Source: an uncultured Clostridia bacterium
GTDB taxonomy: Bacteria > Bacillota > Clostridia > Christensenellales > CAG-314
NCBI GenBank assembly: GCA_947630425.1
Contig: CANRHN010000003.1
Coordinates: 2,824 to 66,823 of the forward strand
Reading direction: 5' to 3'
DNA: 64,000 bases
Numbering within the stretch: position 1 is the stretch's first letter; each line of letters starts with the position of its first letter. This document shows positions 12,800 to 51,397 of this stretch, piece by piece. Made by a program: the position numbers and the translations under genes. Below the pieces are notes generated by a model that searched no databases, was not told the DNA's origin, and saw only the letters and a list, made by a program, of their open reading frames with translations.

Positions 12800-13651
12800 A
12801 TGATCAAGACATCTATAAGATTTTTTGAAGACATTCCGGTAAGAGCCGTCTGGAATAACGAGGATTCCAAATGGTGGTTTTGCGCCGTTGATATAGCCGA
12901 GGCACTCACTAAGAGTAAAAACCCGCGCTCCTATTGGAACACGTTGAAGCGTCGCCACAATGAGTTGTCGACAATTTGTCGACAACTCAAACTTGTTGCG
13001 CGGGACGGCAAAGCATATCTTACCGACGTGGTGGAAGCAGGCGGCGTCAACACGGTTGTTGCGCTCATTCCCGTAAAAAATCGTGAAAATTTTGTACGTT
13101 GGCTCTCGGGTATAGGCAGAACTATTGATGAAAAAAGCAAGCAAAAAGCATACGAGCTGTTTGAAAGCGGCTTGATCGGAGAAATAGAGGTTGGAACGGT
13201 CAGGGGCTTGCAGCAGATTCACGGCTACATTTTCGGCGGATTATTTGACTTTGCGGGGCAAATCCGCGGTTTGAACATTGCCAAAGGCGGCTTTGCGTTT
13301 GCACCGGCAATGTACTTAAAAGAAAATCTTGCGCTCATCGAGAAGATGCCCGAAAACACCCTTGACGATATTGTCAAAAAATATGTTGAAATGAACATTG
13401 CGCACCCGTTTATGGAAGGTAACGGGCGCAGTATGCGTATTTGGCTCGACCTTATTTTGAAAAAGAATTTACACAAATGCGTCGATTGGAGCAAAATCGA
13501 CAAGCGCGCCTATCTTGACGCTATGCGAAAAAGCCCCGTTGACACGTCGGACATTTTTCGGCTCATCGACAACGCGCTGACAGAGAAAATCGACGACCGC
13601 GAATTGTTTATGAAAGGCATTGATTACTCCTATTACTACGAGGAAGAATAA
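12800..13651 (+). CDS. Fic-family protein: Bro-N-like N-terminal domain fused to a class III (NmFic-like) Fic AMP-transferase domain
   Basis: Fic motif [12 protein letters not shown]. The core ([38 protein letters not shown] ... [10 protein letters not shown]) closely resembles Neisseria NmFic as I remember it. A C-terminal SYYYEE sits in the position of the inhibitory SxxxE(G/N) helix. The N-terminal ~115 aa ([28 protein letters not shown]) looks like a Bro-N/antirepressor-type domain. Confidence 0.8.
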
Positions 13652-13791: not shown

Positions 13792-13800
13792 ACAAACAAG

Positions 13801-13950
13801 CCTATCGAGAGTGACGGAGAGACGGACTCGGTGAAGTCACAGCAACCTAAAAATTTTTACGGTTAGGTGCTAAATTCCGCGACAACAGTCGAAAGATGGG
13901 ACGGCGAATGGGGTTTTGCGCGTCTTGTCTGTTGGCAAGACGTTCTTTTT
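13801..13950 (+). promoter_or_regulatory. SAM-I (S-box) riboswitch with terminator expression platform
   Basis: CTATCGAGAGTGACGGAGAGACGGACTCGGTGAAGTCACAGCAACC ... GGTGCTAAATTCCGCGAC ... GAAAGATGGG matches the S-box core. Terminator CGTCTTG-loop-CAAGACG plus TTCTTTTT at 13921-13950. Directly upstream of metK. Confidence 0.85.
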
Positions 13951-13990: not shown

Positions 13991-15172
13991 ATGAAGAACA
14001 CAAGACACAGATTTTTTACTTCCGAAAGCGTGACAGAGGGACATCCCGACAAAATGTGCGACCAAATTTCCGACGCCATTTTGGACGCCATACTTGCGCT
14101 TGACCCCGACGCGCGCGTTGCGTGCGAAACGGTCGTGTGTACGGGTACGGTGTTTGTGATGGGACAAATAACCACAACCGCCGTGGTGGACTACGCAAAA
14201 ATAGTGCGCGACACCGTTCGCGACATAGGCTACACTCGCGCCAAGTACGGCTTCGACGCGGACAGCTGCGGCGTCATCATCTCGCTTGACAAACAATCTC
14301 CCGACATTGCCCTCGGCGTGGACCGTTCGGACGAGTACCGCGACCGCGGCGAATTGTTGGATCTGTACGGCGCGGGCGACCAAGGAATGATGTTCGGCTA
14401 TGCGTGCAACGAAACGCCGGAATATATGCCAATGGCAATTATGCTTGCGCAAAAAATCAGCCGCAGGCTTGCCGAGGTGCGCAAGACGGGCGTGTTGGAC
14501 TACCTTCGTCCCGACGGAAAGTGTCAGGTGACGGTGGAGTACGACGGCGACAAGCCCTACCGCGTTGACACGATAGTTTTGAGTACTCAGCACGGACCGG
14601 ACGTAGACAGCGCAACCATTGCCCGCGACATGATAAACGAAGTTATACGCAAGGTTGTTCCGCTGGAGCTGTTGGACGATCAAACCAAGTACTACATCAA
14701 CCCCACGGGACGTTTTGAAATAGGCGGACCCGCGGCGGACAGCGGCTTGACGGGGCGCAAAATCATTGTTGACACCTACGGCGGCTACTGCGCGCACGGC
14801 GGCGGAGCTTTCAGCGGCAAAGATCCCACCAAAGTGGACCGTTCCGCCACCTACATGGCGCGTTATATATGCAAAAACATCGTTGCGGCAGGCATTGCGG
14901 ACAGAATACAGCTGCAAGTCAGCTACGCTATCGGTCGCAGCAAGCCCGTCAGTATCGACGTCAACACCTTCGGCACGGGCAAAATAAACGATTTTGCTCT
15001 TTCGGAAATCATTTCCGAAGAGTTTGACCTTCGCCCCCGTGCAATAATAGACAAATTTCACCTTCAACAGCCCGTTTACAAAGCGACGGCAAGCTACGGT
15101 CACTTTGGCAGAGAAGAATTTGCTTGGGAACAGCTTGACAAGGTGGACGACCTCAAAAAATATATCCATTAG
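13991..15172 (+). CDS. metK: S-adenosylmethionine synthetase
   Basis: 393 aa. [37 protein letters not shown] and [16 protein letters not shown] are MetK signatures. Confidence 0.97.
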
Positions 15173-18502: not shown

Positions 18503-21412
18503 ATGAGAGAAAATTACGGCAGAGCCAACGTCAAGGCTCTGAAACAGCTCAAAAAAATTCTCAATCTTGTCAACGAAAAGGAGTCTGTCTACCACGGCAT
18601 GTCGGACTCCGAGTTGTCGGGACAAACGCAGCTGCTCAAGCAACGCTATCAAAATGGCGAAACGTTGGACGAGTTGTTGCCCGACGCCTACGCCGTGTGC
18701 CGAGAGGCGGCATGGCGCACGCTCGGACAGCGGCATTTCGACGTGCAGGTCATGGGCGGTATCGCTTTGCATCAGGGACGTATTTGCCAGATGGCAACAG
18801 GCGAAGGCAAAACGCTTACGGAAACGCTCCCCGCCTACCTCAACGCTTTGACGGGCAACGGCGTACACATCGTCACCGTCAACGAGTACCTTGCCAAGCG
18901 CGATATGGATTGGATGGGGCAGGTGTTCCGTTTTCTCGGTCTTACCGTCGGCGTGACCCTTTCTCAACAGGAATTCGAGGACAAAAAAGCCGCCTACTCC
19001 TGCGATATCACCTACGGCACAAACAGCGAGTTCGGCTTTGACTACCTTCGCGACAACATGGCTACCGCGCGCGAGCAATGCGTGCAACGCGGGCTTAATT
19101 TTGTCATCGTGGACGAAGTGGACAGCATTTTGATAGACGAGGCACGCACTCCGCTCATCATCAGCGGACGGGGCGACAAGCCCGGCGACGAGTACATTCG
19201 CGCAAGGGACTTTGTTGTGCGCCTGCAAAAGTCCACCAACGTGGACGCAGAGGGCAACCTCGAAGGAGAAAACGACCGTCTTGCTCGTTTTACCAAGTCC
19301 AACTCGGACGAAGAACCAAACGGCGACTACGTTGTGGACGAAAAGAACCGCAGCGTGCGTTTGACGGACAGAGGCGTCAAAAAGGCGGAGCTGTACTACA
19401 AGGTGGAAAACCTTTCCTCGCCGGAAAACACCGAAATCAACCACTATATCAACAACGCGCTGCACGCGCACGCTTTGATGAACAAAGGCGTGGACTACAT
19501 CGTGGAAAAGGGCAAAGTCATCATCGTAGACAATTTTACGGGTCGCAAAATGGAGGGCAGACGCTTTTCCAACGGCTTGCATCAGGCAATCGAGGCAAAG
19601 GAAAGGGTTACGATCCAATCCGAGGACAAGACGATTGCAACCATCACCTTGCAAAACTACTTCCGTCTTTATCACAAAATGAGCGGCATGACGGGTACTG
19701 CCAAAACGGAAGAAAAGGAATTCAACACCATTTACAACGTGGACGTGGTGGTCATTCCCACCAACAAGCCCGTCATCAGAATTGACTACGACGATCAGTT
19801 CTACATGACGAACGAGGGCAAACTGCGCGCCATAGTAAAGAAAATTCAGGAGTGTCACGAACACGGGCAGCCCGTGCTGGTGGGTACAACAAGCGTGGAA
19901 AAGAGCATTGCGCTTGCCCGTCGCTTAAAGGACAGCGGCGTTACCAACAAGGAAGTGGTGACGTTGCTCAACGCCAAGTCGGACGAGGAAAAGGAAGCGC
20001 TTGCCATTGCCAAGGCGGGCATGCCCGGCAACATCACCATCGCCACCAACATGGCAGGCAGAGGAACGGACATTCTGTTGGGCGGCGGCGACCCCGTACC
20101 TTTGGCAAAGGAAGAATTCCGTCGCACAATGAAGCAACGCTATCGTCAGTCGGAAAAGGACAACGCGGTTGTGGAGCAAAAGGTAAACGAGGCGTTGGAG
20201 GCGGCGTTGTCGGACAGAACGGACTCCTTTGCCGAGGAGTGCCGTCGCACCTACAAGGAGTTTTACGATCGTTACGCCGAAGAGTTCAAGCAAAACAGGC
20301 AAAAGGTGTTGGACGCGGGCGGACTGTTTGTCATCGGTACCGAGCGTCACGAGGCGCGCCGTATTGACGATCAGCTGCGCGGACGTGCCGGACGTCAGGG
20401 CGACCCGGGAGCAAGCATGTTCTTTGTGTCTGCCGAGGACGACATGATACGCGTTTTCGGCGGCGATATGCTTCAGCGCACAATGATGTTTTTGCATTTC
20501 GACGAGGACGCGCCCGTTGTGTCGCGAATGATCACTCGCATAGTGGAAAGCGCGCAAAAACGCATCGAGGGCATGCACTTTTCCGCACGTAAAAACGTGT
20601 TGCAGTACGACGACGTAAACAACCAACAGCGCAAGGTCATCTACAAGGAACGCGACCGTATTCTCGACAACGAAGAAATTCACGGCGACATTCTCGCCAT
20701 GGTGCCCGATTACGCCCGTTATGCCCTTGCCGAAGCCTGCGACAGCAACGAAAACGTCGGCGATTGGGATCTCGACAAGGTAAACAAGGTGTTGGAGGGC
20801 TTTTTCATCAACGAAGAGGACAAACCGTTGGTGACGGACGGGAATCTTGTAAGCGCGCGCCACGTTTGCGACCTGCTATGCGACCGTCTGACCGACTTTT
20901 TCAACCAACGTCTTGCGGAAGCGGGCGACGGCGCCAAGTACTACTATCAATTGGAGCGCGACGTGCTTTTGCGCACAATGGACAAGCTGTGGATGGACCA
21001 CATCGACGCGCTGGACGAATTGCGCAAGGGCGTGGGTTTGCAGGCGATCGGTCAACACGACCCCCTTTCCGTCTACAAAAAGGAAGCCTACGACATGTTT
21101 GAAAATCTCAACGAGCAAATAAAGGTGCAATCGTTGCGTAGGCTTATGCGCTATCGCGTGCGTCCCGAGCTTGTTCGCGAACAGGAAAACGTCAATTCCG
21201 AAAAGAAACTCAACGGTCCTTGCCCTTGCGGAAGCGGCAAAAAGTACAAAAACTGCTGCTATCTCAAGGATTTGGCAAAACAGCAGCAAAATTCCGAAGG
21301 CGAGCAGGAAAACCGTCCGCTCACCAAGCAGGAAATGTACGCTCTGAAACGTCAGCAACGCAAGTCGGACAAGGAACTGCAAAAAATTTCCAACCCCAAT
21401 TTACGAAAATAA
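18503..21412 (+). CDS. secA: Preprotein translocase ATPase SecA
   Basis: 969 aa. MATGEGKTL Walker A, DEVDSILIDEARTPLIIS, TNMAGRGTDI and the C-terminal zinc motif CPCGSGKKYKNCC, followed by an extra ~50-aa tail. Confidence 0.97.
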   Translation: MRENYGRANVKALKQLKKILNLVNEKESVYHGMSDSELSGQTQLLKQRYQNGETLDELLPDAYAVCREAAWRTLGQRHFDVQVMGGIALHQGRICQMATGEGKTLTETLPAYLNALTGNGVHIVTVNEYLAKRDMDWMGQVFRFLGLTVGVTLSQQEFEDKKAAYSCDITYGTNSEFGFDYLRDNMATAREQCVQRGLNFVIVDEVDSILIDEARTPLIISGRGDKPGDEYIRARDFVVRLQKSTNVDAEGNLEGENDRLARFTKSNSDEEPNGDYVVDEKNRSVRLTDRGVKKAELYYKVENLSSPENTEINHYINNALHAHALMNKGVDYIVEKGKVIIVDNFTGRKMEGRRFSNGLHQAIEAKERVTIQSEDKTIATITLQNYFRLYHKMSGMTGTAKTEEKEFNTIYNVDVVVIPTNKPVIRIDYDDQFYMTNEGKLRAIVKKIQECHEHGQPVLVGTTSVEKSIALARRLKDSGVTNKEVVTLLNAKSDEEKEALAIAKAGMPGNITIATNMAGRGTDILLGGGDPVPLAKEEFRRTMKQRYRQSEKDNAVVEQKVNEALEAALSDRTDSFAEECRRTYKEFYDRYAEEFKQNRQKVLDAGGLFVIGTERHEARRIDDQLRGRAGRQGDPGASMFFVSAEDDMIRVFGGDMLQRTMMFLHFDEDAPVVSRMITRIVESAQKRIEGMHFSARKNVLQYDDVNNQQRKVIYKERDRILDNEEIHGDILAMVPDYARYALAEACDSNENVGDWDLDKVNKVLEGFFINEEDKPLVTDGNLVSARHVCDLLCDRLTDFFNQRLAEAGDGAKYYYQLERDVLLRTMDKLWMDHIDALDELRKGVGLQAIGQHDPLSVYKKEAYDMFENLNEQIKVQSLRRLMRYRVRPELVREQENVNSEKKLNGPCPCGSGKKYKNCCYLKDLAKQQQNSEGEQENRPLTKQEMYALKRQQRKSDKELQKISNPNLRK

Positions 21413-21414
21413 CA

Positions 21415-22509
21415 ATGATTCAGATAGACGAACTTAAACTTAATATAAAACAGCTGCAGCAAAAGCTCAACGGCATAGGGGAAAGTCTCGACCTGCCCAA
21501 GCTGCGCGAGGAGCTGGGCTCTCTCACCGAACAGCAGCACAAAGCGGACTTTTGGGAAAACATCAAAAACGCCCAACAGGTAAGTCAGCGCGCCAAAAGC
21601 ATAGAGAACAAAATTACCTCTTACGAAAAGCTGTGCAAACGCCTTGCCGACGTCAACGACCTTGTGGAGCTGTGCGAAAGCGACGAGGCGTTGTTGGAAG
21701 AAACGGCTGCCGAGCTTGGGCAAATAGACATCGACGTAAACGAAATGCACGTTGCCACCTTGCTTTCGGGAAAATTCGACTCTAACAACGCCATTTGCAC
21801 GCTGCATGCGGGCGCAGGCGGCACGGAAGCTCAGGATTGGGTGCAGATGCTGTACCGAATGTACACCCGTTACTGCGAACGGCGCGGCTACAAGCTGACG
21901 GAGCTGGACTACCTTGACGGCGAGGAAGCGGGTATCAAATCCGTAACCTTCAAGGTGGAAGGGGAAAACGCGTACGGCTACCTCAAGGCGGAAAAGGGCG
22001 TTCACCGTTTGGTGCGCATTTCTCCCTTCGACGCCAACAAACGCCGTCACACCAGCTTTGCAAGCCTCGAGGTGATGCCGGAGCTGCAAACGGACAGCGA
22101 AATCGTCATCGACGACAAGGACTTGAAAATAGACACCTACCGCAGCAGCGGCGCGGGCGGACAGCACGTCAACAAGACGGAGAGCGCGATCCGCATTACG
22201 CACCTTCCCACGGGCATAGTGGTGTCCTGCCAAAACGAGCGCAGTCAAATCCAGAACCGCGAACAGGCAATGAACATGCTGCGGAGCAAGCTTGCCGAGC
22301 TTAAGGAACGGGAGCAGATGGAAGAGGCGGCCGCCATCAAGGGAGAAATAAAAAAGATAGAATGGGGTAGCCAAATCCGTTCTTACGTGTTTTGTCCCTA
22401 CACTTTGGTAAAGGACCACCGCACCAATTTTGAAAACTCCAACGTGTTGGACGTGATGGACGGAAACATTCAACCGTTTATCGAAGACTATCTTACAAAG
22501 GCAATTTGA
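21415..22509 (+). CDS. prfB: Peptide chain release factor 2 (single frame, no programmed frameshift)
   Basis: SPF (RISPFDA) and GGQ (SGAGGQHVNKTESA) motifs. ATG at 21415 is 3 nt after the secA stop. The ORF-track start at 21220 lies inside secA. Confidence 0.93.
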   Translation: MIQIDELKLNIKQLQQKLNGIGESLDLPKLREELGSLTEQQHKADFWENIKNAQQVSQRAKSIENKITSYEKLCKRLADVNDLVELCESDEALLEETAAELGQIDIDVNEMHVATLLSGKFDSNNAICTLHAGAGGTEAQDWVQMLYRMYTRYCERRGYKLTELDYLDGEEAGIKSVTFKVEGENAYGYLKAEKGVHRLVRISPFDANKRRHTSFASLEVMPELQTDSEIVIDDKDLKIDTYRSSGAGGQHVNKTESAIRITHLPTGIVVSCQNERSQIQNREQAMNMLRSKLAELKEREQMEEAAAIKGEIKKIEWGSQIRSYVFCPYTLVKDHRTNFENSNVLDVMDGNIQPFIEDYLTKAI

Positions 22510-22512
22510 CAA

Positions 22513-23358
22513 ATGAAAACACTGCTTAGACAATTTTACACGGGCGAACGGGCAATGTTTGCCGTAAACGACCTGCATTTTGAGGAATGTACCTTTGACG
22601 CGGGAGAATCGCCCTTAAAGGAAAGCTCGGGTTTGCTCATAGACCGATGTTTGTTCAAATGGAAGTACCCTCTTTGGTACTGCAACGACGTAACCGTCAA
22701 CGACAGCACATTTTTCGACATGTCGCGCGCGGGCATTTGGTACACAAACAACATCACCTTCAACAACTGCGTGGTGCAGTCTCCCAAAAATTTTCGCCGC
22801 TCGACATTCGTTACGCTCAACAACGTGGATTTGCCCAACGCCGCGGAAACGCTTTGGAATTGTTCCGACGTCACCTTGGAAAACGTAACCGCGCAGGGAA
22901 CGTATTTTGCAATGGGCTGTAAGCGTATCAAAGCCAACAACCTTGTGCTTACGGGCGACTACTGCTTTGACAGCGCGGAGGACGTGGTGCTGCACAACTG
23001 CAAACTGCTCAGCAAAGACAGCTTTTGGAATTGCCGCAATGTTACCGTGTACGACAGCTTCATTTCCGGAGAGTATCTTTGTTGGAACGCTCACAACGTC
23101 ACCCTTGTCAACTGCACATTGGAAAGCTTGCAAGGCTTGTGCTACGTGGAAAACCTCAAGCTGGTAAACTGCACTCTGCTCAACACCACGCGCGCGTTCG
23201 AGTACAGCACCGTGGACGCCACCGTTAGGGGGCACATCGACAGCGTTGTTAACCCGTCGGGCGGCAAGATAGTCGCCGACAGCATAGGCGAGCTTACGCT
23301 GGATGAGCGTTATATAGACCCGACCAAGACCGAAGTGGTCACAGCGGAGAAAAAATGA
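22513..23358 (+). CDS. DUF3737-like beta-helix repeat protein
   Basis: 281 aa. TGERAMFAVNDLHFEECTFDAGESPLKES...FKWKYPLWYCNDVTVNDS...AGIWYTNNITFNNC matches my memory of the DUF3737 family. Confidence 0.7.
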   Translation: MKTLLRQFYTGERAMFAVNDLHFEECTFDAGESPLKESSGLLIDRCLFKWKYPLWYCNDVTVNDSTFFDMSRAGIWYTNNITFNNCVVQSPKNFRRSTFVTLNNVDLPNAAETLWNCSDVTLENVTAQGTYFAMGCKRIKANNLVLTGDYCFDSAEDVVLHNCKLLSKDSFWNCRNVTVYDSFISGEYLCWNAHNVTLVNCTLESLQGLCYVENLKLVNCTLLNTTRAFEYSTVDATVRGHIDSVVNPSGGKIVADSIGELTLDERYIDPTKTEVVTAEKK

Positions 23359-24542
23359 CAAATTTCGACAAAACGGTCAATCGTCGCAACACCGATTCTC
23401 TTAAATGGAACGTGGACGAGGGCGAATTGCCCATGTGGGTGGCGGACATGGATTTTCCCACCGCACCCTGCGTTACCGAGGCTGTAGTCGCCAAGGCAAA
23501 GCGCGGAGTGTTCGGCTACGAGGAAGTGCCCGCAAGGTGGTTTGACGCTTACGTAAATTGGTGGAAAACGCGACACGGCTGGGAAATGAACAAAAATTGG
23601 CTGTGCTTTGTGACGGGCGTTGTGCCCGCTATCACAAGTTGCGTCAAAAGTCTGTCAAAGGAGGGCGACGGCGTTTGCGTGATGACGCCCGTCTACGACA
23701 TATTTTTTCATTCGATAGAAAACACCGGCAGAAAGGTGGTGGAAAGTCTCCTTGAGTACGACGGCAGAACCTACCGCATAGACTTTGACAACCTCGAAAG
23801 GTTGTTGGCTTTGCCCAACGTTTCGCTGTTGATACTGTGCAATCCGCACAACCCCGTGGGGCGCGTGTGGAGCAAAGAGGAGCTTGCAAGGGTGGGAGAG
23901 CTGTGCGCACGGCACGGCGTGACGGTAATTTCCGACGAAATTCATTGCGACCTTACCGAGCCCGACGCGGACTATGTTCCGTTTGCCTCTGCGTCACCCG
24001 TCTGCGCCGAAATTTCCGTAACCGCCATTTCCGCAAGCAAGGCGTTCAATCTTGCGGGTATGCAGTCGGCGGCGGTCGCCGTTCCCGACGAAAAACTGCG
24101 CGAAAAGGTGGTGCGCCACCTCAACTACGACGAGGTTGCCGAGCCAAACAGCTTTGCCTGCGTTGCAACGGTGGCGGCTTTTACCGAGGGAGAGCAGTGG
24201 TTGGAAGAGCTGCGAGCTTACCTTTCCGAAAACAGAAAGACCGTTTTGCGTTTTCTTTCGGAGCAGCTGCCGCAGCTTAAAGCGGTGGAACAACAGGCGA
24301 CCTACCTGCTGTGGGTGGATTGTTCGGCAATCACCGACGACTCGCAGTCTCTTTGCAATCACATTCGCCATCAAACGGGACTGTATCTCAACTGCGGCGC
24401 AAAGTACCGAGGAAACGGCAACAGCTTTGTGCGTATCAACGTGGCTTGTCCGCGCGCAACGCTCAATGACGGTTTGCAACGGTTGCGCAAAGGCATATTG
24501 AGTTTTGTTCCGACCAAACGCGAGGCGGTCGGATGGACTTGA
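23355..24542 (+). CDS. patB: MalY/PatB-family PLP-dependent C-S lyase (cystathionine beta-lyase-like aminotransferase)
   Basis: 395 aa. N-terminal FDKTVNRRNTDSLKW, the SASKAFNLAG lysine region and LCNPHNPVGRVW are class I/II aminotransferase MalY/PatB features. The last 11 codons lie inside the 254-bp repeat. Confidence 0.85.
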   Translation: MTNFDKTVNRRNTDSLKWNVDEGELPMWVADMDFPTAPCVTEAVVAKAKRGVFGYEEVPARWFDAYVNWWKTRHGWEMNKNWLCFVTGVVPAITSCVKSLSKEGDGVCVMTPVYDIFFHSIENTGRKVVESLLEYDGRTYRIDFDNLERLLALPNVSLLILCNPHNPVGRVWSKEELARVGELCARHGVTVISDEIHCDLTEPDADYVPFASASPVCAEISVTAISASKAFNLAGMQSAAVAVPDEKLREKVVRHLNYDEVAEPNSFACVATVAAFTEGEQWLEELRAYLSENRKTVLRFLSEQLPQLKAVEQQATYLLWVDCSAITDDSQSLCNHIRHQTGLYLNCGAKYRGNGNSFVRINVACPRATLNDGLQRLRKGILSFVPTKREAVGWT

Positions 24543-24762
24543 CACTCCTCAAGAAAAGAAATAGAAGCTATTTAGAAAATTTTTCAATAAAAAGGGGCAG
24601 ACACCTCTGTGCTTGGTGTCTGCGCCATCGTGACCCTACGGGCGCGTTGCGCCGCCTCGGTCGGACTACTAAGGAAGCCGCTGCACGCGGCTTCATTTTT
24701 TAGACTTAGCTGGGGGTCTTGCCCCAGCACCCCCAAGTTTGGCTGCAATCTCGGTACACGCC
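24509..24762 (+). repeat. Left copy of a perfect 254-bp inverted repeat (partner 37286-37539)
   Basis: Base-by-base comparison of 24509-24762 with the reverse complement of 37286-37539 showed no mismatch. Includes the patB 3-prime end, the hairpin GCAGACACC/GGTGTCTGC, a terminator and CTGGGGGTCTTGCCCCAG. Confidence 0.9.
24674..24701 (+). terminator. Rho-independent terminator downstream of patB (part of a repeated terminator module)
   Basis: GAAGCCGC-TGCAC-GCGGCTTC followed by ATTTTTT. The same GTCGGACTACTAAGGAAGCCGCTGCACGCGGCTTC occurs at 37347-37385 (-) and 51223-51257 (-). Confidence 0.85.
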
Positions 24763-25060
24763 GTCGTCACAACACTCGCTTGACGTTACCATTCGTGCAA
24801 GCACGAACAGTACCAACGTCGCTCGGTTGTTCCTCTCCCACCCAAGTTTCATTCTTCAACTTGTGTGGGGTCCCTGTGTGCAGACGGAATTTTCGCTTTT
24901 CCCGCTACTACGGACGAAACGTCCGTCTCCGCGCGCGAAAATTCCGAGTTAATATAGAAGTCGGCTTCTATATGTGTTTTTCTTCATGTTTGAATATTGG
25001 TTTTTTTAGTCTTTTTTTTTGACTTTTTGCCATAAAAAATAGCTTCCCTTTCGAGATGAA
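24763..25060. repeat. Mosaic repeat block RB2
   Basis: Degenerate fragment of the long-form insert (24818-24878), GCAGACGGAATTTTCGC...GGACGAAACGTCCGTCTCCGCGCGCGAAAATTCCGAG, the palindrome ATATAGAAG-TCGG-CTTCTATAT (24952-24973) and a T-rich tail. It is colinear with the reverse complement of 50960-51180. Confidence 0.85.
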
Positions 25061-25111
25061 TTCGGTAAAACAAAAATCGCCGCAGCAAGCGACGACTTTT
25101 TTTATGCACGG

Positions 25112-26335
25112 TCAGTGCGGCAATTTCTTTTGACCTTGATTGTGGCGTATCAACTGAAACACGGTAAAAAACATTCCGATGATTATGTAGCTGTAGTAGC
25201 TGAGGAAACGCCAGCTGAACACCGTCCAGAACAGCGCGCCGCTGCTCAAGGTGGTAAGCGCAAACATAAACGCGCTTTCCACCGCTCCGGAGTTGCCGGG
25301 GGTAGGCACAATCATTGCGCTCATCTGCGCGTACACGTTCAGCGTCATAATTTCCAACATCAGCTCCCAACCGGGGGTAACGGCAGGTCCACCCAAAGCC
25401 ACAACAACAAAGTAGGGCAACATCATGGAAATGAAGGGCTCGGCAATGCACAGCAGGGCAAGCGCAAGAGAGTAGAGGGGGCGTTTTATCATGGAGAGGA
25501 ACGCCGCCACAAAATCGTTTACGGCTTTTTTGCCCCGAGTCATGTTGCCCTCGATGTCCTTTACAATTTTCAGTTTGTGTCCTATTTTAAGAACGCCGCG
25601 CGTGACAGCCCACGTCATTTTGGGGAACACAGCGCAACTGAGTATAAGCAGCGGAAGCGCGCAATTGACGGCAAATCCGATCCAACCGCCCGCAACAAGC
25701 CAATTGCGTTGCGCCTCGTCCGCCACGCGCACCGTCAGCACGTCGCGTTTTAGCAGCATCAGCAAAAAGCATATCGTCAGCCACATCGTCATGTTAAAGG
25801 CAAATTTTATAAAAATTATCGCCGAGGCTTCGCCGCCGCCGACGCCCTTTTTGTGGAGTTGGTAAATTTGCATGGGCTGACCGCCGCTGCTGAAGGGCGT
25901 AATGTTGTCGTAGTACTTGCCCAACAGGCAGACGGACAGCGCAGTCCCGAACCCCGCCTTGGTGCGATTTGCTCTCATAATAACAACGTACTTGAGAGTA
26001 TCCAAAATTATCATTGCGCACAAAGCACACAACGAAAGCACAAGGTACTTGACGTTGACTTCGGAAAAGACTTCCTTAAACGTTTTTTGACTGCCGAGGT
26101 CGTTGCTGCTTGCAAAACTGTACATCAGGTACACGGCAAGAGCAATGCTCATCACAAAAAATATATTGCCCCAAATGCGCGGCTTTTTTTGCGGAAGCTC
26201 GTTACCGTTGCGCTTGGCTTTGGTGCGCTTGACGTTTTCCAAGGCAAGGTAGACAATTATCACCCATTCGGCAATTACAACGGTGATCAGCAGCCAAAAA
26301 ATATCGGGGAGCGTTGTTTGCAGTAAAAGCGTCAT
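25112..26335 (-). CDS. Lysylphosphatidylglycerol-synthase TM-region (flippase-like, UPF0104) family membrane protein
   Basis: Polytopic membrane protein with the PFSSGGQPMQ motif typical of LPG_synthase_TM. The ORF opens with TTG at 26356. ATG at 26335 (MTLLLQ...) with GAGGG upstream is preferred. Confidence 0.75.
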   Translation of the reverse strand: MTLLLQTTLPDIFWLLITVVIAEWVIIVYLALENVKRTKAKRNGNELPQKKPRIWGNIFFVMSIALAVYLMYSFASSNDLGSQKTFKEVFSEVNVKYLVLSLCALCAMIILDTLKYVVIMRANRTKAGFGTALSVCLLGKYYDNITPFSSGGQPMQIYQLHKKGVGGGEASAIIFIKFAFNMTMWLTICFLLMLLKRDVLTVRVADEAQRNWLVAGGWIGFAVNCALPLLILSCAVFPKMTWAVTRGVLKIGHKLKIVKDIEGNMTRGKKAVNDFVAAFLSMIKRPLYSLALALLCIAEPFISMMLPYFVVVALGGPAVTPGWELMLEIMTLNVYAQMSAMIVPTPGNSGAVESAFMFALTTLSSGALFWTVFSWRFLSYYSYIIIGMFFTVFQLIRHNQGQKKLPH

Positions 26336-27412: not shown

Positions 27413-27470
27413 ACATAGGATTACTCATAAGAGGAGAAGTGGCGTAGCGACGAAGTTTCGCTTTTCATTT

Positions 27471-27585
27471 GCAGCAAAACCGAAGCAAAACCGAAGCGAA
27501 ATCGAAGCAAAACGTAAGCAAAATCGAAGCAAAATCGAAGCGAAATCGAAGCAAAACCGAAGCAAAACCGAAGCAAAACCGAAGC
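27471..27585. repeat. Tandem repeat, 11-nt unit x10 (GAAGCAAAACC and variants)
   Basis: Read directly: GCAGCAAAACC GAAGCAAAACC GAAGCGAAATC GAAGCAAAACG TAAGCAAAATC GAAGCAAAATC GAAGCGAAATC GAAGCAAAACC x3. The unit is not a multiple of 3. Confidence 0.95.
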
Positions 27586-27669
27586 TAATGTAAATGATAA
27601 TGAAAATGGTAATGATAATGTTAATGTAAACGAGAGTGAGAATGAAAATGAAAATGAAAACGAAAATGC
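27586..27669. repeat. Tandem repeat, 6-nt unit x14 (TAATGT/AAATGA/GAATGA...)
   Basis: Read directly. Contiguous with the 11-mer array. There is no start codon after the in-frame TAA at 27515 on the + strand. Confidence 0.9.
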
Positions 27670-33885: not shown

Positions 33886-34020
33886 GGGGACCCCAACGAG
33901 TTGAGTATAACGAAACTTGTTGGGGAGAGGAACAGCCGACTGTTAGCGGAACCGACCGAGCATTGCGCGAGGTTGGTACTATCGAGGGAAAGCTGTGACG
34001 AGCGGTGGATGAGTTTCGAC
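33886..34020 (+). repeat. Long-form insert plus tail (lacks HP2 and the left HP1 arm)
   Basis: GGGGACCCCAACGAGTTGAGTATAACGAAACTTGTTGGGGAGAGGAACAGCCGAC...GTGACGAGCGGTGGATGAGTTTCGAC. Confidence 0.9.
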
Positions 34021-34193: not shown

Positions 34194-34492
34194 ACAAAGG
34201 AGCTTCCCCACGAGAATGGAAGTCTCGCAAATGGGTTTCCTGCGCCCCGGGGGAGGACCGCAACGCTCGGTACACGCCCGAGGTTGCGGGAAATTAGTTT
34301 GAATTTTCGACCACATGCGGGGCGGTAAACGTTATTTTTGTGCAAAAGTGCAAAAAAGTATTGAAAATTATTGGATTTTGTAGTATTGTATTACTGACAT
34401 AATATATAAGGGGAGTTTGCCCGTTTTTCCTTTTTTGCGCGAAAAACTCGGCATGGCGGCAAAACGCCCTTCCCCGTTGCAAAGGAGCAGCA

Positions 34493-36046
34493 ATGAACAA
34501 TTTTCCCAAATGGCTGAACACGGCAGTTTTTTATCAGGTGTACCCGCAAAGCTTTTGCGACGGCAACGGCGACGGTATAGGAGACCTGAACGGGCTTGTT
34601 TCCGAGCTTGACTACATCTCGAACACGGGCTTCAATGCAATCTGGCTCAACCCCTGCTTCGATTCTCCCTTCAAGGACGCAGGGTACGACGTCAAAAACT
34701 ACTTTAAGGTTGCGCCGCGCTATGGCACAAACGACGACCTTGTGCGGCTTTTCAAGGAAGCGCACAATCGCGGCATGCACGTAATTTTGGACCTTGTGCC
34801 CGGACACACCTCCGACAAATGCCGTTGGTTCAAGCAGAGCGCAAAGCCAACGCGCAACAGGTACAGCGACCGCTACATTTGGACCAACAGCGGCTGGGCG
34901 CGTCCCGAGGGCTACAATTGGGTGACGGGCAACGCCGACCGTAACGGCACGTACATGCTCAATTTCTTTCTCAATCAGCCCGCCTTGAACTACGGCTTCA
35001 ATGTGGTAACAGACCCCGATTGGCAAATTTCCTACCGAGACAAGCGCGTCAAGCCCACTCTGGAAGCCATGAAAAAGGTTATGCGCTTTTGGCTGGACAA
35101 GGGCGCGGACGGCTTCCGCGTAGACATGGCGGACAGCCTTGTCAAAAACGACCCCGACAAAACGGCGACGGCTTGGCTGTGGCGCAAGGTTCGCGCAATG
35201 CTTGACAGACACTACCCCGAAGCGGTGTTGGTTTCCGAGTGGTGCAACGCGCCCGTTGCCATCAACAAGGCAAGGTTTCACTGCGACTTTTTGCTCAATC
35301 ACGGAAACAAGCTGACGGACTACGCCTTTTACAAGCGGGACAAAGAGGGCAAAAGCACGGCTTACTTTTGCAAAACGGCGCACGTTTCGGCTAAAAACAT
35401 GTTGAGCGTTTACCTTCGCGAGTTGAACCAAACGCGCAACAACGGCTATATCAGCGTGATAAGCGGCAATCACGACGTGGAACGACTGAGCTACTTTTTG
35501 GACGACAGCGAAAGGCGCGTTGCGTTTGCGTTTTTGCTTACGTTGCCCGGTGTGCCCTTTGTGTACTACGGCGACGAGATAGGCATGCGTTACATTCCGC
35601 AGCAATCCAAGGAAGGCGGTTTTCACCGCACGGGAAGCAGAACCCCGATGCAGTGGGACGACGCTCTGCCCAACATGGGCTTTTCCACGGCAAAGGCAAA
35701 CAAGCTGTACCTCGATGTAGACAGAACTCCCGACGCGCCCTCTGCGGCTGGGCAAATGCGGGACAAGTCCTCTCTTTGGAACGAGGTCCACACCTTGTTG
35801 GAGCTTCGCCGCACTCAAACGGATCTGCAGTCCGACGGAGAATTGGAAGTGACGGAGTGCGGTGAGAACGGCGTTTTGTGTTACCGCCGCGGACAACATA
35901 CCTATGTTGCAATCAACCCGACGGACGAGGAGAGGAAACTTTCCGACGTTGTGGGCAGCAAACGACTGTTTGAAATCGGACGCGCAACGGACGGCGACGG
36001 CTTTGCCTTGCTTGCGCCCCAAACGGTTGTCGTTTTTGAAAAATAA
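34493..36046 (+). CDS. GH13 alpha-amylase family enzyme (alpha-glucosidase/oligo-1,6-glucosidase-like)
   Basis: 517 aa. YQVYPQSFCDGNGDGIGDLNG, DLVPGHTS, GFRVDMADS, VSEW and SGNHDVERL are GH13 regions. Confidence 0.85.
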   Translation: MNNFPKWLNTAVFYQVYPQSFCDGNGDGIGDLNGLVSELDYISNTGFNAIWLNPCFDSPFKDAGYDVKNYFKVAPRYGTNDDLVRLFKEAHNRGMHVILDLVPGHTSDKCRWFKQSAKPTRNRYSDRYIWTNSGWARPEGYNWVTGNADRNGTYMLNFFLNQPALNYGFNVVTDPDWQISYRDKRVKPTLEAMKKVMRFWLDKGADGFRVDMADSLVKNDPDKTATAWLWRKVRAMLDRHYPEAVLVSEWCNAPVAINKARFHCDFLLNHGNKLTDYAFYKRDKEGKSTAYFCKTAHVSAKNMLSVYLRELNQTRNNGYISVISGNHDVERLSYFLDDSERRVAFAFLLTLPGVPFVYYGDEIGMRYIPQQSKEGGFHRTGSRTPMQWDDALPNMGFSTAKANKLYLDVDRTPDAPSAAGQMRDKSSLWNEVHTLLELRRTQTDLQSDGELEVTECGENGVLCYRRGQHTYVAINPTDEERKLSDVVGSKRLFEIGRATDGDGFALLAPQTVVVFEK

Positions 36047-36055
36047 GGAGGAAGC

Positions 36056-36904
36056 ATGAGTAACAAACCAATCGTTGCGCTTATATACGACTTCGACAAC
36101 ACCCTTTCCACGCGCGATATGCAGGAATTTACCTTCATTCCCGCGTTGGGAATGTCTCCGCAGGAATTTTGGTCCAAGTGCGACCAAATTTCGCACGAAC
36201 GCAGCATGGACCATATTTTGGCGTACATGTACCTTATGGCGCAAAAAGCGCGGGAAAAGGGCATAAGCATCACGCCGGAGGCATTGCGCGCCATGGGCAA
36301 GGACGTTCAGTTTTTCGACGGAGTGGAAACTTGGTTCAAACGCATAAACGATTTTGGCGCAAGCGTCGGGCTGGAGGTGCGGCACTATATCATCTCTTGC
36401 GGACTTAAGGCAATGATAGAGGGCTGCCCGATCGGTCATGAGTTTTACAACATCTTTGCCTGCGACTACGTATACGACGAAAACGGTCAGGTGATGTGGC
36501 CCGGCGTTGCCATCAACTACACAAGCAAAACGCAATTTCTTTACCGCATAAACAAGGGCGTAGAGGACGTGGGCGAACACAAAAAGCTCAACATGTACAT
36601 GCCCGCAGGCGAACGCGTTGTGCCCTTTGAAAACATGATCTACATCGGCGACGGACTTACCGACGTGCCCAGCATGAAGCTTACGCGCAGTCGCGGAGGC
36701 TATGCCGTGGGCGTTTACCGCAACCCCGAGGACGCCACCTACCTTGTAAAAGAAGATCGCGTGGATTTCTATGTGGAAGGCAACTACACCGAAAACAGCG
36801 CAATGGACGTGGCAATCAAGGCGATATTGAACCGTATCAGCGCGCGTATTCGCTTCAAAGAGCTGTCGGAAAACAGCTACAAATCGGCAATAACCAAGAA
36901 GTAG
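36056..36904 (+). CDS. HAD-superfamily hydrolase
   Basis: 282 aa. Motif I YDFDNTL near the N-terminus and motif IV-like YIGDGLTDVP. 9 nt downstream of the GH13 gene. Confidence 0.75.
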   Translation: MSNKPIVALIYDFDNTLSTRDMQEFTFIPALGMSPQEFWSKCDQISHERSMDHILAYMYLMAQKAREKGISITPEALRAMGKDVQFFDGVETWFKRINDFGASVGLEVRHYIISCGLKAMIEGCPIGHEFYNIFACDYVYDENGQVMWPGVAINYTSKTQFLYRINKGVEDVGEHKKLNMYMPAGERVVPFENMIYIGDGLTDVPSMKLTRSRGGYAVGVYRNPEDATYLVKEDRVDFYVEGNYTENSAMDVAIKAILNRISARIRFKELSENSYKSAITKK

Positions 36905-37285
36905 CCCAAACCGCAAAAAAAACACCCTCGACCTTGTTCAACAGGGAGCGAGGGTGTTCGCATACAAAACGATCCGGAATATCGGGCATGTCGAAACTCA
37001 TCCACCGCTCGTCACAGCTTTCCCTCGATAGCACCAACCTCGCACAAGGCTCGGTCGGTTCCGCTATCGGTCGGCTGTTCCTCTCCCCAACAAGTTTCGT
37101 TATACTCAACTCGTTGGGGTCCCCGTTATAGCCCCCTTCTCTTGCGTCCTCAAGAGAAGGCTTGGTATGCAGTTGCAGAATATGTTAAGAAACAAGCTGT
37201 CAAAACAAACTCGGTATTTTCGCGCGCGGAGACGGACGTTTCGTCCGTAGTAGCGGGAAAAGCGAAAATTCCGTCTGCAATCGCG
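36905..37285 (-). repeat. Mosaic repeat block RB5
   Basis: Hairpin AACACCCTCG...CGAGGGTGTT with an A8/T8 run, a long-form core module at 36990-37160 (-), and GACGAAACGTCCGTCTCCGCGCGCGAAAATACCGAG in reverse orientation. Confidence 0.9.
36990..37160 (-). repeat. Core module, long form
   Basis: GTCGAAACTCATCCACCGC, then the insert, then CCTTCTCTTGCGTCCTCAAGAGAAGG read on the + strand. Confidence 0.9.
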
Positions 37286-37539
37286 GGCGTGTACCGAGAT
37301 TGCAGCCAAACTTGGGGGTGCTGGGGCAAGACCCCCAGCTAAGTCTAAAAAATGAAGCCGCGTGCAGCGGCTTCCTTAGTAGTCCGACCGAGGCGGCGCA
37401 ACGCGCCCGTAGGGTCACGATGGCGCAGACACCAAGCACAGAGGTGTCTGCCCCTTTTTATTGAAAAATTTTCTAAATAGCTTCTATTTCTTTTCTTGAG
37501 GAGTGTCAAGTCCATCCGACCGCCTCGCGTTTGGTCGGA
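37286..37539 (-). repeat. Right copy of the perfect 254-bp inverted repeat (includes an orphan 34-nt copy of the patB 3-prime end)
   Basis: The reverse complement is identical to 24509-24762. The spurious ORF 37506..37733 (-) ends in PTKREAVGWT exactly like patB. Confidence 0.9.
37347..37374 (-). terminator. Terminator copy within the right inverted repeat
   Basis: Reverse complement of the 24674-24701 hairpin plus T-run. Confidence 0.7.
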
Positions 37540-37628
37540 GTATCCTTTTTTGGTGCAATTTCGACAGAAATTGCGCCTTTTTTACGTCCGTTGTGCGCTA
37601 CAATGGTGGGTGACAACGGAGGTTCATA

Positions 37629-38480
37629 ATGTACTGCAAACGCATACTCATTTTGCAACAGACCAACGCGCGCTTTGCCGAAAGGGGCAGGGAGCTGTGC
37701 GGCTTGGTCAAGCTGGTAAACAACGGCAAGCAATCAACGGACGTTACGGTGTTTGTCACCAATGCCGACGTGCGTATGTTGGGAGAGTGGTGGCTGCTGC
37801 TCTCTTTCGATCGCGTGCCGCAAGCGGTTCAGCTTGACACCCTCGACAACTGCACTTTTTCCTTGCCGTTGCAGCCGTTGGAAAAAGTCAGCTGTCTGTT
37901 GGTAAAAAGAGAGGACAGGTGCTTCGAGGCGGCGCGCGCATACCTCGGCGACAACGCTTGCGACGCTCTCTACCGTCAGATGGACGCGCTGTGTCGCACA
38001 CCCCTCGACGCGGCAAGCAGTCCTTACGAGCAGTTTGTGGCTTCCACCGAAAACTTTTACGGCAAAGTGGACGTGGAAAAGCTCAAACTCAAGGCGGACA
38101 GCCGATACAAAAGCGTCTCCGACTACAGCAACGCTTTTGAACGGTTCTATGCCGCGGGCGCGCACTCCGACTACTACGAAAGCGTCAAGGCGGAAATCGG
38201 CAAGGTGTTTGTGGAATTTCCGCCCTACTATCCGCTTATTCGCAAGTACCGAGAGGCGTTTTTTGTGCGCATAGATTTTCCCAAGTCGGACAAGTACTTT
38301 GTGTTGGGCGTTTTGCAAAAGGAAGGGCGTATTCGCTACATCTGCTACGGCTTGCCCGCCGAGCGCGACGGCGTTACCGACAAGGACTTTGTTTACGTAG
38401 AAAACGCTCCGACGGCGTTTTGGATGCTGTTTCAGGACGCCGATTCGGGGCAAATTTCCGCGATAAACGGGTTGGTTTAG
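37629..38480 (+). CDS. Hypothetical protein (283 aa)
   Basis: GGAGG RBS and coding-like composition. I recognise no motif. Confidence 0.6.
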   Translation: MYCKRILILQQTNARFAERGRELCGLVKLVNNGKQSTDVTVFVTNADVRMLGEWWLLLSFDRVPQAVQLDTLDNCTFSLPLQPLEKVSCLLVKREDRCFEAARAYLGDNACDALYRQMDALCRTPLDAASSPYEQFVASTENFYGKVDVEKLKLKADSRYKSVSDYSNAFERFYAAGAHSDYYESVKAEIGKVFVEFPPYYPLIRKYREAFFVRIDFPKSDKYFVLGVLQKEGRIRYICYGLPAERDGVTDKDFVYVENAPTAFWMLFQDADSGQISAINGLV

Positions 38481-38531
38481 AAATATTTGTATTTATTGCG
38501 CGTCGATCCAAACAGATTGGCGCAAAATTGT

Positions 38532-38560
38532 TGCAATTTTTATGTTTTTGTACTATAATC
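38532..38560 (+). promoter_or_regulatory. Putative promoter of the lipoprotein gene
   Basis: TTGCAA (38532-38537), 17 nt, TATAAT (38555-38560). Confidence 0.6.
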
Positions 38561-38593
38561 TATCTCGTATGTACTTACTTAAGGAGTAGTGTA

Positions 38594-40099: not shown

Positions 40100-40174
40100 G
40101 CCGACCCCTGTGCGGCGGTTGATTGCTTGCTACTGCGTAACGCATGCGCAATCAACGGTTAGATTTACAACATT

Positions 40175-42650: not shown

Positions 42651-42739
42651 AGCTGTTCCTCTCCCCAACAAGTTTCGTTATACTCAACTCGTTGGGGTCC
42701 CCTTTGCGGTCCCCCTTCCCTTGCGTCGTCAAGGGAAGG
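42651..42739 (-). repeat. Truncated long-form module with variant HP2
   Basis: AGCTGTTCCTCTCCCCAACAAGTTTCGTTATACTCAACTCGTTGGGGTCCCCTTTGCGGTCCCCCTTCCCTTGCGTCGTCAAGGGAAGG, then CTAAGTGCGGCGAA. Confidence 0.88.
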
Positions 42740-44250: not shown

Positions 44251-44288
44251 TGTCGCCCAGACGCGCGGCGTTCGGTAAAATTTGCAAC

Positions 44289-50879: not shown

Positions 50880-51397
50880 AACAAAGCCGTTTTGCGACGA
50901 ATACCCGCGCTTCTTGTTGAACAAGGTCTGGAATTTTGATTTGAACTGTTTGTTTTGAGACAAAGTTTGTCTCGGGGAAGCTATTTTTTTATGGTAAAAA
51001 GTCAAAAAAAGACTAAGAAACAAATGTTCAAACGTGAAAGTAATCAAATATAGAAGCCGACTTCTATATTAACTCGGTGTTTTCGCGCGCGGAGACGGAC
51101 GTTTCGTCCGTAGTAGCGGAAAAAGCGAAAATTCCGTTTGCAAGTGGCGACCTGCGCGGCACTTGCAATCCACCCCGGGGGTGCTGGGGGTACGGGAGAC
51201 CCCAGCGAAGGTCAAATTAAAAGAAGCCGCGTGCAGCGGCTTCCTTAGTAGTCCGACTTTGGCGACGCTTCGCGCACGAAGTGGCAGTATCGTGAGAACT
51301 TACCCAAAGACGGAAATATGGTAAATGGGAAGAATCGACTTTTACGGAGAAACCGATTTGTAAAGCGAACGATACGCTCGCCAAACGTTTGGTCGGA
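50880..51397 (-). repeat. Mosaic repeat block RB9
   Basis: On the minus strand it starts with TCCGACCAAA (51388-51397) directly after the MFS stop. It contains the terminator module, CTGGGG...CCCCAG, GGACGAAACGTCCGTCTCCGCGCGCGAAAA, the palindrome ATATAGAAG-CCGA-CTTCTATAT (51048-51069) and GGTATTCGTCGCAAAACGGC. Colinear with RB2. Confidence 0.88.
51217..51243 (-). terminator. Terminator of the MFS gene (repeat-borne)
   Basis: GAAGCCGC-TGCAC-GCGGCTTC followed by TTTTAA on the minus strand. Confidence 0.7.

What the first reader, a model, noticed from the sequence alone, without database searches (positions are those of the whole stretch)
24509..24762. Perfect 254-bp inverted repeat (24509-24762 vs 37286-37539) containing the patB 3-prime end and flanking a 12.5-kb segment
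I compared the two copies base by base and saw no mismatch, whereas other members of the repeat family differ by several percent. The repeat starts 34 nt inside patB (codons for VPTKREAVGWT plus stop). The right copy is therefore a duplicated gene fragment, not just an independent insertion of a mobile module. Identity ends exactly where the left copy carries an extra ~115-bp fragment (24763-24878). Similarity resumes after it, at GCAGACGGAATTTTCGC.... The enclosed 12.5 kb holds membrane and stress functions: an LPG-synthase-TM protein, hsp20, RND-cls, and GH13-HAD. Such a repeat is a substrate for RecA-mediated inversion and may mark a recent inversion-duplication. It could also be a metagenomic assembly artefact at a repeat.
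Basis: seen in the sequence. Interest (0 to 1): 0.65.

Follow-up and report, generated by a model that had tools for sequence, protein, structure and literature searches.

The report
Twin copies of a dispersed repeat
The perfect 254-bp inverted repeat is real, but it is two freshly copied members of an abundant hairpin-rich intergenic repeat family in a rabbit-gut Clostridia-like bacterium. It is not a duplicated piece of patB, and the 12.5 kb between the copies still lies in its ancestral orientation.

Summary
Bases 24509-24762 and 37286-37539 are 254 nt and 100% complementary. Similarity resumes after a 116-nt nested module in the left copy.

The interpretation mostly fails.
- **The "patB 3' end" is a repeat module.** PatB homologues stop 2-3 residues after ...GILSF, exactly where the repeat begins. 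K-mer depth puts this ~46-nt module at about 40-58x the unique depth in four rabbit-gut metagenomes, with several different flanks. Another strain ends PatB with a different module and a different tail.
- **The 12.5-kb segment is core chromosome in ancestral orientation.** The two nearest relatives keep patB-LPGsynthase(-)-hsp20 and patB-hsp20-RND-HAD-orf37629 in the same order and strands. GC skew and gene strand bias are unbroken. None of the 33 predicted genes is a recombinase or transposase.
- **Three of the four junctions are not assembly artefacts.** Both outer junctions and the left inner junction recur at 99.9-100% in independent ENA assemblies.
- **The right copy is polymorphic among ~99%-identical strains.** Three alleles exist: the full cluster, a cluster lacking 291 nt, and an "empty" 122-nt spacer.

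Best reading: a recently copied or converted pair of composite MITE/BOX/BIME-like elements, one of which supplies patB's tail, stop codon and terminator. Inversion between them is possible in principle but unevidenced. Interest is low.

The parts
24509..24762 (+). Left copy of the perfect 254-nt repeat (modules A1+A2+B). It overlaps the last 34 nt of patB.
   Evidence: The outer junction recurs in L001/L002 and the inner junction in L093, all at 100%.
37286..37539 (-). Right copy of the 254-nt repeat, reverse-complemented. It lies in the HAD-orf37629 spacer, 90 nt upstream of the orf37629 start codon.
   Evidence: The outer junction recurs in L085/L086/L087. The copy is absent from the L088 strain type and from the 'empty' L083/L084 alleles.
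24509..24554 (+). Module A1: hairpin CCGACC-N11-GGTCGG plus a second small hairpin. It encodes the PatB tail (V)PTKREAVGWT and the stop codon. High copy number.
   Evidence: Depth is 41-58x the unique flank in X5, X6, X3 and X7. Several unrelated flanks abut position 24510 (loose ends). Hairpin fold. The motif is found only in the two copies within the window.
24555..24604 (+). Module A2: AT-rich, low-copy core of the unit.
   Evidence: The 65-nt unitig 24551-24615 has depth 19.3/22.9 against unique depth 19/24 in X5/X6. That is about one copy in strains that lack the right copy.
24605..24762 (+). Module B: three hairpins including a terminator-like stem-loop (24674-24694 followed by ATTTTTT). 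CCGCCTCGGTCGGA at 24652-24665 is the inverted partner of the A1 5' end, which closes a 157-nt sub-unit bounded by terminal inverted repeats (TIRs).
   Evidence: Depth is roughly 20-67x unique. Terminator scan. Whole-unit fold: -99.3 kcal/mol, z = -4.6, pairing bases 1-7 and 14-20 with 24652-24665. A module boundary at 24664 appears as a loose end and a joint.
24763..24878 (+). 116-nt hairpin module nested between B and C in the left copy only. The right copy has CGCGAT here.
   Evidence: About 80%-identical relatives lie at 37067-37123, 33887-33939, 6345-6392, 42654-42701 and 45960-46016. The B-CGCGAT-C junction without the insert is present at about 4-6x unique depth. Fold z = -3.4.
24879..24950 (+). 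Module C, left copy: a 12-bp perfect stem CGGAATTTTCGC/GCGAAAATTCCG enclosing the GGACG-AAAC-GTCC hairpin. The most abundant module.
   Evidence: 72 nt with one mismatch to 37208-37279. Depth is 84-158x unique. Fold.
37208..37279 (-). Module C, right copy.
36915..37207 (.). Remainder of the right-hand repeat cluster, made of other family modules. It lies between the HAD stop codon and the right copy.
   Evidence: Confirmed by L089/L091/L092. Absent from the L083/L084 empty alleles.
50975..51257 (-). Third, diverged and partial member (B'-C-D; 82-89% identical) between two convergent genes.
23355..24542 (+). patB-like class I/II aminotransferase gene. Its last 11 codons and stop codon are supplied by module A1.
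   Evidence: Pfam Aminotran_1_2. C-terminal comparison with 12 homologues. Strain variant P0003 has a different tail.
37552..37577 (+). Native terminator-like hairpin downstream of HAD. It lies outside the repeat cluster and is retained in the empty allele.
40100..40129 (+). Related module (GCCGACC...CGGCGGTTGATTGC) starting directly after the orf38420 stop codon. It is the same type that ends patB in strain SRR29273041.

Best explanation
The two arms are sibling copies of one composite, non-coding, hairpin-rich repeat. Its layout is A1-A2-B, then C after a short linker, about 332 nt in all. It belongs to a lineage-specific family of modular intergenic repeats that fills about 7% of this window and sits at gene 3' ends.

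The two copies lie in opposite orientation at two different repeat-prone 3' intergenic sites of a conserved core region. The left copy landed in the last codons of patB. It now supplies patB's 11-residue tail, its stop codon and the only terminator-like hairpin downstream. The right copy sits in a nested repeat cluster inserted between the HAD stop codon and HAD's native terminator.

Their perfect identity reflects a recent event. This was either copying of the unit from one site to the other or gene conversion between them. It was not duplication of patB sequence and not an inversion. The 116-nt module was nested into the left copy, or lost from the right copy, afterwards.

Shown here: composition, copy number, junctions, strain polymorphism, ancestral synteny. 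Inferred: the copying mechanism and its direction.
For: - The repeat is perfect, and 254 nt is the longest pair in the window. Other family pairs have a median identity of 90%.
- Module depths relative to the unique flank: A1 41-58x, B roughly 20-67x, C 84-158x, A2 about 1x in strains lacking the right copy.
- Different unrelated flanks abut position 24510 in the metagenomes.
- PatB homologues end ...SFER*...LFQKR*...SFRSI*. The window has ...SF|VPTKREAVGWT*.
- Strain SRR29273041 has ...GILS|YSDHTCGG*, encoded by another module whose relative sits directly after the orf38420 stop codon.
- Synteny: L003 has secA-prfB-DUF3737-patB-hsp20-RND-HAD-orf37629-orf38420, all on +. L004 has patB-LPGs(-)-hsp20(+). 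Both match the window.
- GC skew is +0.047 / +0.028 / +0.033 for the left flank, segment and right flank. 31 of 33 predicted genes are on the + strand.
- No recombinase or transposase domain was found in any predicted gene.
- Independent assemblies reproduce the left outer junction (L001/L002), the left inner junction (L093) and the right outer junction (L085-L087) at 99.9-100%.
- The HAD-orf37629 spacer has three alleles among ~99%-identical strains: 724 nt in the window, 291 nt shorter in L088 and runs X5-X7, and 122 nt in L083/L084.
- The modules fold into strong hairpins. One is terminator-like.
Against: - No read or independent contig spans a whole copy, so the interior identity and the right inner junction (37286) rest on the submitted assembly alone.
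- No target-site duplication was found, and no autonomous parent element was seen. The transposition mechanism is therefore unproven.
- Depth ratios come from metagenomes and could include related co-resident strains or species.
- The 'empty' allele still carries 15 nt identical to part of A1 (CCGACCGCCTCGCGT). The polarity of insertion versus deletion at the right site is therefore not settled.
Confidence: 0.8

Rival explanations
1. Recent inversion-duplication. A rearrangement inverted the 12.5-kb segment and copied the patB 3' end with its downstream sequence to the far breakpoint.
For: The repeat is perfect, lies in inverted orientation and overlaps the patB ORF end.
Against: - The order and strand of all flanking and internal genes match relatives L003 and L004.
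- GC skew and gene strand bias show no reversal.
- The 'patB' part is a module at about 50x depth, and homologues lack it.
- The right site exists in strains with and without the copy, yet flanking order is unchanged.
Confidence: 0.03
2. Assembly or polishing artefact. One copy, or the perfect identity of the two, was created by an assembler threading through a high-copy repeat graph or by consensus polishing with multi-mapping reads.
For: - The family is high-copy.
- All short-read contigs break inside module B.
- No independent contig bridges a whole copy or the right inner junction.
- One contig end (L086) has a single mismatch inside the right copy.
Against: - Unique-flank-to-repeat junction sequences are reproduced 55-186 nt into the repeat in five independent ENA assemblies, and 63 nt from the left inner side.
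- Only about 12 nt are shared at the alternative right junction, too few to mislead a k-mer graph.
- The large-scale order agrees with relatives.
Confidence: 0.1
3. A functional invertible segment. The repeats are recombination sites for programmed, reversible inversion of the membrane/stress gene block.
For: Inverted repeats flank a gene block, and 254 bp of perfect homology would suffice for RecA-dependent exchange (general knowledge).
Against: - No invertase or recombinase gene lies in or near the block, or anywhere in the 64 kb.
- The arms are ordinary family members present at dozens of sites.
- Strains lacking one arm exist.
- Inversion would put 5 of the 6 genes head-on to the prevailing strand bias.
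- A single orientation is seen in relatives.
Confidence: 0.03

Closest known systems
Pneumococcal BOX / RUP / SPRITE repeats (Croucher et al. 2011, PMC3049150)
   Same: - Small, non-coding, highly structured modular repeats in a Firmicute.
- They occur in clusters, nest into one another, are restricted to one lineage and are often co-transcribed with neighbouring genes. Insertions differ between strains and can modify genes.
- All of these behaviours are seen here.
   Different: - No sequence relationship was shown.
- The modules here are GC-rich, and at least four clusters start at or inside a stop codon.
- Turnover looks fast: three alleles at one site among ~99%-identical strains. Croucher et al. 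describe slow turnover.
REP/BIME mosaic elements of enterobacteria and bacterial MITEs in general (review: Delihas 2011, PMC3184786)
   Same: - Intergenic position downstream of genes, stem-loop modules combined in mosaics, and tens to hundreds of copies.
- One sub-unit (24509-24665) has 14-nt imperfect terminal inverted repeats.
   Different: - No GTAG-type REP head and no RAYT or IS200/IS605 gene was seen.
- No target-site duplications were found.
- Membership of any specific family is untested.
Coxiella QMITE1/QMITE2 (Wachter et al. 2018, PMC5896051)
   Same: About 50 copies per genome, 150-400 bp, lying in 3' UTRs or overlapping annotated ORFs and so contributing peptide sequence. Module A1 similarly contributes the PatB tail.
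   Different: The QMITEs have direct repeats at their ends, and one has sigma-70 promoters. Neither was found here.
Inverted-repeat-flanked invertible segments (invertons, shufflons)
   Same: A pair of inverted repeats brackets a gene block.
   Different: There is no recombinase and no evidence of a second orientation. The arms are generic dispersed repeats and one arm is missing in some strains.

Membership tests
MITE (non-autonomous transposable element) | Small (under ~500 bp), non-coding, multi-copy and dispersed | tested here: met
   The composite is 254-332 nt. Module depth is 40-158x unique, with many different flanks. Ten clusters lie in the 64 kb.
MITE (non-autonomous transposable element) | Terminal inverted repeats | tested here: inconclusive
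   Sub-unit 24509-24665 is closed by TCCGACC..GAGGCGG / CCGCCTCGGTCGGA (7+7 bp with a 6-nt bulge). Module C has a 12-bp perfect stem. The full 254-nt arm has no TIR of its own.
MITE (non-autonomous transposable element) | Target-site duplication flanking insertions | tested here: not met
   No direct repeat flanks either copy or the cluster when compared with the empty allele.
MITE (non-autonomous transposable element) | Presence/absence polymorphism at orthologous sites | tested here: met
   Three alleles of the HAD-orf37629 spacer. Two different modules occur at the patB 3' end.
MITE (non-autonomous transposable element) | Cognate autonomous IS with matching ends | not testable with these tools
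   No transposase lies in the window. The rest of the genome is not available. The module patterns are absent from genome contigs and metagenome contigs.
BOX/BIME-type mosaic modular repeats | Distinct hairpin modules combined in variable order and nested in clusters | tested here: met
   A1, A2, B, the 116-nt module, C, D and others recombine differently at 24.5, 27.2, 33.5, 37.0, 42, 46 and 51 kb. Hairpin folds.
BOX/BIME-type mosaic modular repeats | Sequence homology to the named families | not tested
   No reference sequences were available. Rfam has no match above threshold.
Programmed invertible segment (inverton/shufflon) | Adjacent site-specific recombinase | tested here: not met
   Pfam scans of all 33 predicted genes found none.
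Programmed invertible segment (inverton/shufflon) | Both orientations present in a population | not testable with these tools
   Only Logan unitigs were available and none spans 254 nt. Relatives show one orientation.
Inverted segmental duplication of a gene end | The duplicated stretch is derived from the gene (homologous to orthologues' 3' ends) | tested here: not met
   Orthologues align only to residue ~384 and stop 2-3 residues later in the closest homologues (L003, L004, L006, L014). The stretch is a module at about 50x depth. Another strain has a different tail.

The most novel reading that the evidence does not exclude
The modules could form an actively mobile, self-nesting hairpin-element system. 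It would preferentially land at or in stop codons and terminator regions, and would swap C-terminal tails and terminators between strains. Supporting hints: three alleles at one site and two different PatB tails at ~1-2.5% nucleotide divergence, and modules starting exactly at stop codons at 5951, 40100 and 46972. The mobilising enzyme would be unidentified, act in trans and leave no target-site duplication (for example a single-strand hairpin-dependent mechanism). In the strains that carry it, the 254-bp twin pair would also permit occasional RecA-mediated flipping of the 12.5-kb block.
Probability: 0.2. Interest if true: 0.5.

Novelty: new member of a known kind. Interest (0 to 1): 0.25.

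Why it matters
- **Annotation.** A perfect inverted repeat overlapping a gene end need not be a rearrangement scar. Here the gene end itself is repeat-derived.
- **Biology.** This is a well-documented case, in an uncultured gut Clostridia lineage, of a high-copy modular repeat family. The family rewrites protein C-termini, donates terminators, and varies between strains that are ~99% identical.
- **Practical use.** Such families break short-read assemblies, can mislead orientation calls, and give handy strain markers.
- **Scope.** It does not open a new mechanism.

Tried and rejected
- **Rfam.** The gathering scan of the whole window found only a SAM riboswitch. The E-value scan of 24400-25150 gave only chance-level hits, so the unit is not a known structured RNA.
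- **Pattern searches.** Exact patterns for module C in genome contigs and module A1 in metagenome contigs gave 0 hits. The family could not be traced outside rabbit-gut data.
- **Orientation test.** Only Logan unitigs exist for all 26 runs found, with no raw reads. They break at repeat edges, so orientation cannot be phased.
- **Source-like sample.** The S1 runs have only 3-4x depth, with gaps at the right junction, so they are uninformative.
- **RNA evidence.** One RNA run holds 4% of the words, which is not usable.
- **Promoters.** The promoter scan of both repeat regions found none. I dropped the idea that the right copy donates a promoter to orf37629.
- **Relatives.** The repeats do not occur in L003/L004.
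- **Look-up.** The first look-up of the LPG-synthase protein with the TTG start failed. It succeeded with the ATG start at 26335.
- **Integron attC or CRISPR origin.** I considered both from the sequence and rejected them. There is no conserved attC core and no regular spacing.

Full report
**Observation.** The window holds a perfect inverted repeat with arms 24509-24762 and 37286-37539: 254 nt, 100% complementary, 12,523 nt apart. The left arm starts at the third base of patB codon 385, so it includes the last 34 nt of the ORF with its TGA. Identity stops at 24762/37286. The left copy then has 116 nt (24763-24878) where the right copy has CGCGAT. Similarity resumes for 72 nt with one mismatch (24879-24950 versus 37208-37279). 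A self-BLAST of the window finds 51 repeat pairs of at least 60 nt with a median identity of 90.3%. Only two are perfect, and this is the longest.

**Context.** The window is core chromosome of an uncultured Clostridia-like bacterium from rabbit gut metagenomes.
- The genes are housekeeping and 31 of 33 lie on the + strand. They include metK behind a SAM riboswitch, recD2, comF, secA, prfB, DUF3737, patB, proS, murB, whiA and dnaE.
- No predicted gene is a transposase or recombinase.
- About 4.4 kb (7%) of the window is repeated DNA, and all of it is in intergenic clusters.

**Anatomy of the arm.** K-mer depth of Logan unitigs from four metagenomes, compared with the adjacent unique patB flank, dissects the arm as follows (mirrored).

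| Module | Coordinates | Depth relative to unique flank |
|---|---|---|
| A1 | 24509-24554 | 41-58x |
| A2 | 24555-24604 | low copy; its 65-nt unitig is about 1x in X5/X6 |
| B | 24605-24762 | roughly 20-67x |
| 116-nt module | 24763-24878 | roughly 3-40x |
| C | 24879-24950 | 84-158x |

- Several unrelated sequences abut position 24510 in these data (loose ends). The outer edge of the arm is therefore the end of a dispersed module, not an arbitrary breakpoint in patB.
- The 254 nt fold far better than shuffles (-99.3 kcal/mol, z = -4.6).
- The A1 5' end (TCCGACC..GAGGCGG) pairs with CCGCCTCGGTCGGA at 24652-24665. This delimits a 157-nt sub-unit bounded by terminal inverted repeats (TIRs). Its 3' edge, 24664, is also a module boundary in other copies.
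- B carries a terminator-like hairpin, GAAGCCGCTGCACGCGGCTTC followed by ATTTTTT.
- C is a 12-bp perfect stem around a small hairpin.
- The B-CGCGAT-C junction without the 116-nt module occurs at about 4-6x unique depth. The left copy is therefore the one interrupted by a nested module.

**The patB tail is repeat-derived.**
- In the tblastn comparison, most homologues (about 60 of the 80 kept loci, including the two closest) align only to query residues 377-385, and 14 reach at most 388-393. Of the 12 C-termini read, the closest end 2-3 residues after the conserved ...G-I-x-x-F: L006 ...GILSFER*, L003 ...GIKLFQKR*, L004 ...GIESFRSI*.
- The window has ...GILSF|VPTKREAVGWT*.
- A strain about 97.5% identical (Logan SRR29273041, protein P0003) has ...GILS|YSDHTCGG*. 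That tail is encoded by a different module, TCCGACCACACGTGCGGCGGTTGATTGCTTG. A relative of this module sits directly after the orf38420 stop codon at 40100.
- Other modules also begin exactly at stop codons, at 5951 and 46972.
- So the repeat supplies the tail. The right copy is not a patB fragment.

**No inversion.**
- The nearest genomes keep the window's order and strands. L003 has secA-prfB-DUF3737-patB-hsp20-RND-HAD-orf37629-orf38420. L004 has patB-LPGs(-)-hsp20(+).
- These relatives lack the repeats entirely.
- GC skew is positive and similar in the left flank, segment and right flank: +0.047, +0.028, +0.033. Cumulative skew rises smoothly.
- The segment is ancestral core, not an island, and is in its ancestral orientation.

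**Assembly.**
- Independent low-coverage ENA assemblies reproduce three junctions at 99.9-100%: the left outer junction (L001/L002, to 24677/24694), the left inner junction (L093, 24700-27255) and the right outer junction (L085/L086/L087, from 37485/37456).
- On the right inner side, L089/L092 reach 37260/37270.
- No contig bridges module B. The interior and the junction at 37286 therefore rest on the submitted contig.

**Strain polymorphism.** The HAD-orf37629 spacer has three alleles among strains about 99% identical in the flanks.
- The window has 724 nt.
- A form 291 nt shorter lacks A1-A2-B and half of C (L088/L090 and runs X5-X7).
- A 122-nt 'empty' form occurs in two strains that themselves differ by 1% (L083/L084).
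- The empty form keeps the native HAD terminator (37552-37577) and 15 nt identical to part of A1. Polarity is therefore not fully settled.
- In the X5/X6 strains A2 is about single-copy while the patB junction is intact. Those strains have the left copy only and hence no inverted repeat.

**Interpretation.** The arms are sibling copies of a composite member of a modular repeat family resembling BOX, BIME or MITE elements. Precedents include pneumococcal BOX/RUP/SPRITE, which cluster, nest into one another and modify genes (PMC3049150), and the Coxiella QMITEs, which overlap ORF ends (PMC5896051). Perfect identity against a 90% family background, together with the strain polymorphism, points to a recent copy or gene-conversion event. 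The direction and the enzyme are inferred, not shown. Homologous exchange between the arms remains possible in strains with both copies, from general knowledge of RecA substrates. Nothing here indicates that it has happened or that it is programmed.

**Verdict.** It is a new member of a known kind, and interest is low.

Noticed in passing
window 27462-27610: A tandem array of about 13 copies of an 11-nt unit (AGCAAAACCGA and variants) lies between hsp20 and the RND transporter gene. It sits inside a 165-aa minus-strand ORF with no significant Pfam match (one chance-level hit, DAD, E = 0.0076, below cut-off). An 11-nt period is not a multiple of 3. It could be a contingency or bending tract.
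   Followed up: no
window 5951, 40100, 46972 (and 24509): Repeat modules begin exactly at or inside stop codons of the neighbouring genes: TAA|GTCGCATCGGG, TGA|GCCGACC, and TA(G)TCGCATCGGG on the minus strand. This suggests insertion targeted at stop codons or terminators, or strong trimming by selection.
   Followed up: partly
window 36905-37628; loci L083, L084, L088, L090: The HAD-orf37629 spacer has three structural alleles (724, about 433 and 122 nt) among strains ~99% identical. The 291-nt difference has its end points in the AAACG loops of two hairpins.
   Followed up: partly
locus L096 (Logan SRR29273041) versus window 24500-24545: PatB has strain-specific C-terminal tails (VPTKREAVGWT versus YSDHTCGG), each encoded by a different repeat module joined at the same codon.
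   Followed up: yes
window 44287-45644: The nested inverted repeats here are explained by two divergently arranged paralogous small lipoprotein genes: 44347-44796 on the minus strand and 45058-45588 on the plus strand. Both have signal peptides with ...LAACGKEQTV, and one has a weak FMN_bind hit. This is a genuine inverted gene duplication.
   Followed up: partly
window 34391-36925 minus strand: An 844-aa open frame runs antisense to GH13+HAD and has no Pfam match. It is almost certainly a shadow ORF, but it is unusually long.
   Followed up: no
window 13799-13902: A SAM (S-box) riboswitch (69.9 bits) lies upstream of metK at 13991-15172.
   Followed up: no
window 21220-22509: The prfB (RF-2) reading frame overlaps the secA end. 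The best tblastn matches start at residue 17-45, which is compatible with the usual programmed +1 frameshift. The site was not examined.
   Followed up: no
window 12800-13651: A Bro-N + Fic/DOC domain protein lies in an otherwise housekeeping neighbourhood.
   Followed up: no
window 37629-40099: orf37629 (283 aa) and orf38420 (559 aa) have no Pfam match. Both are conserved next to HAD in relative L003, at 72% and 41% identity.
   Followed up: no
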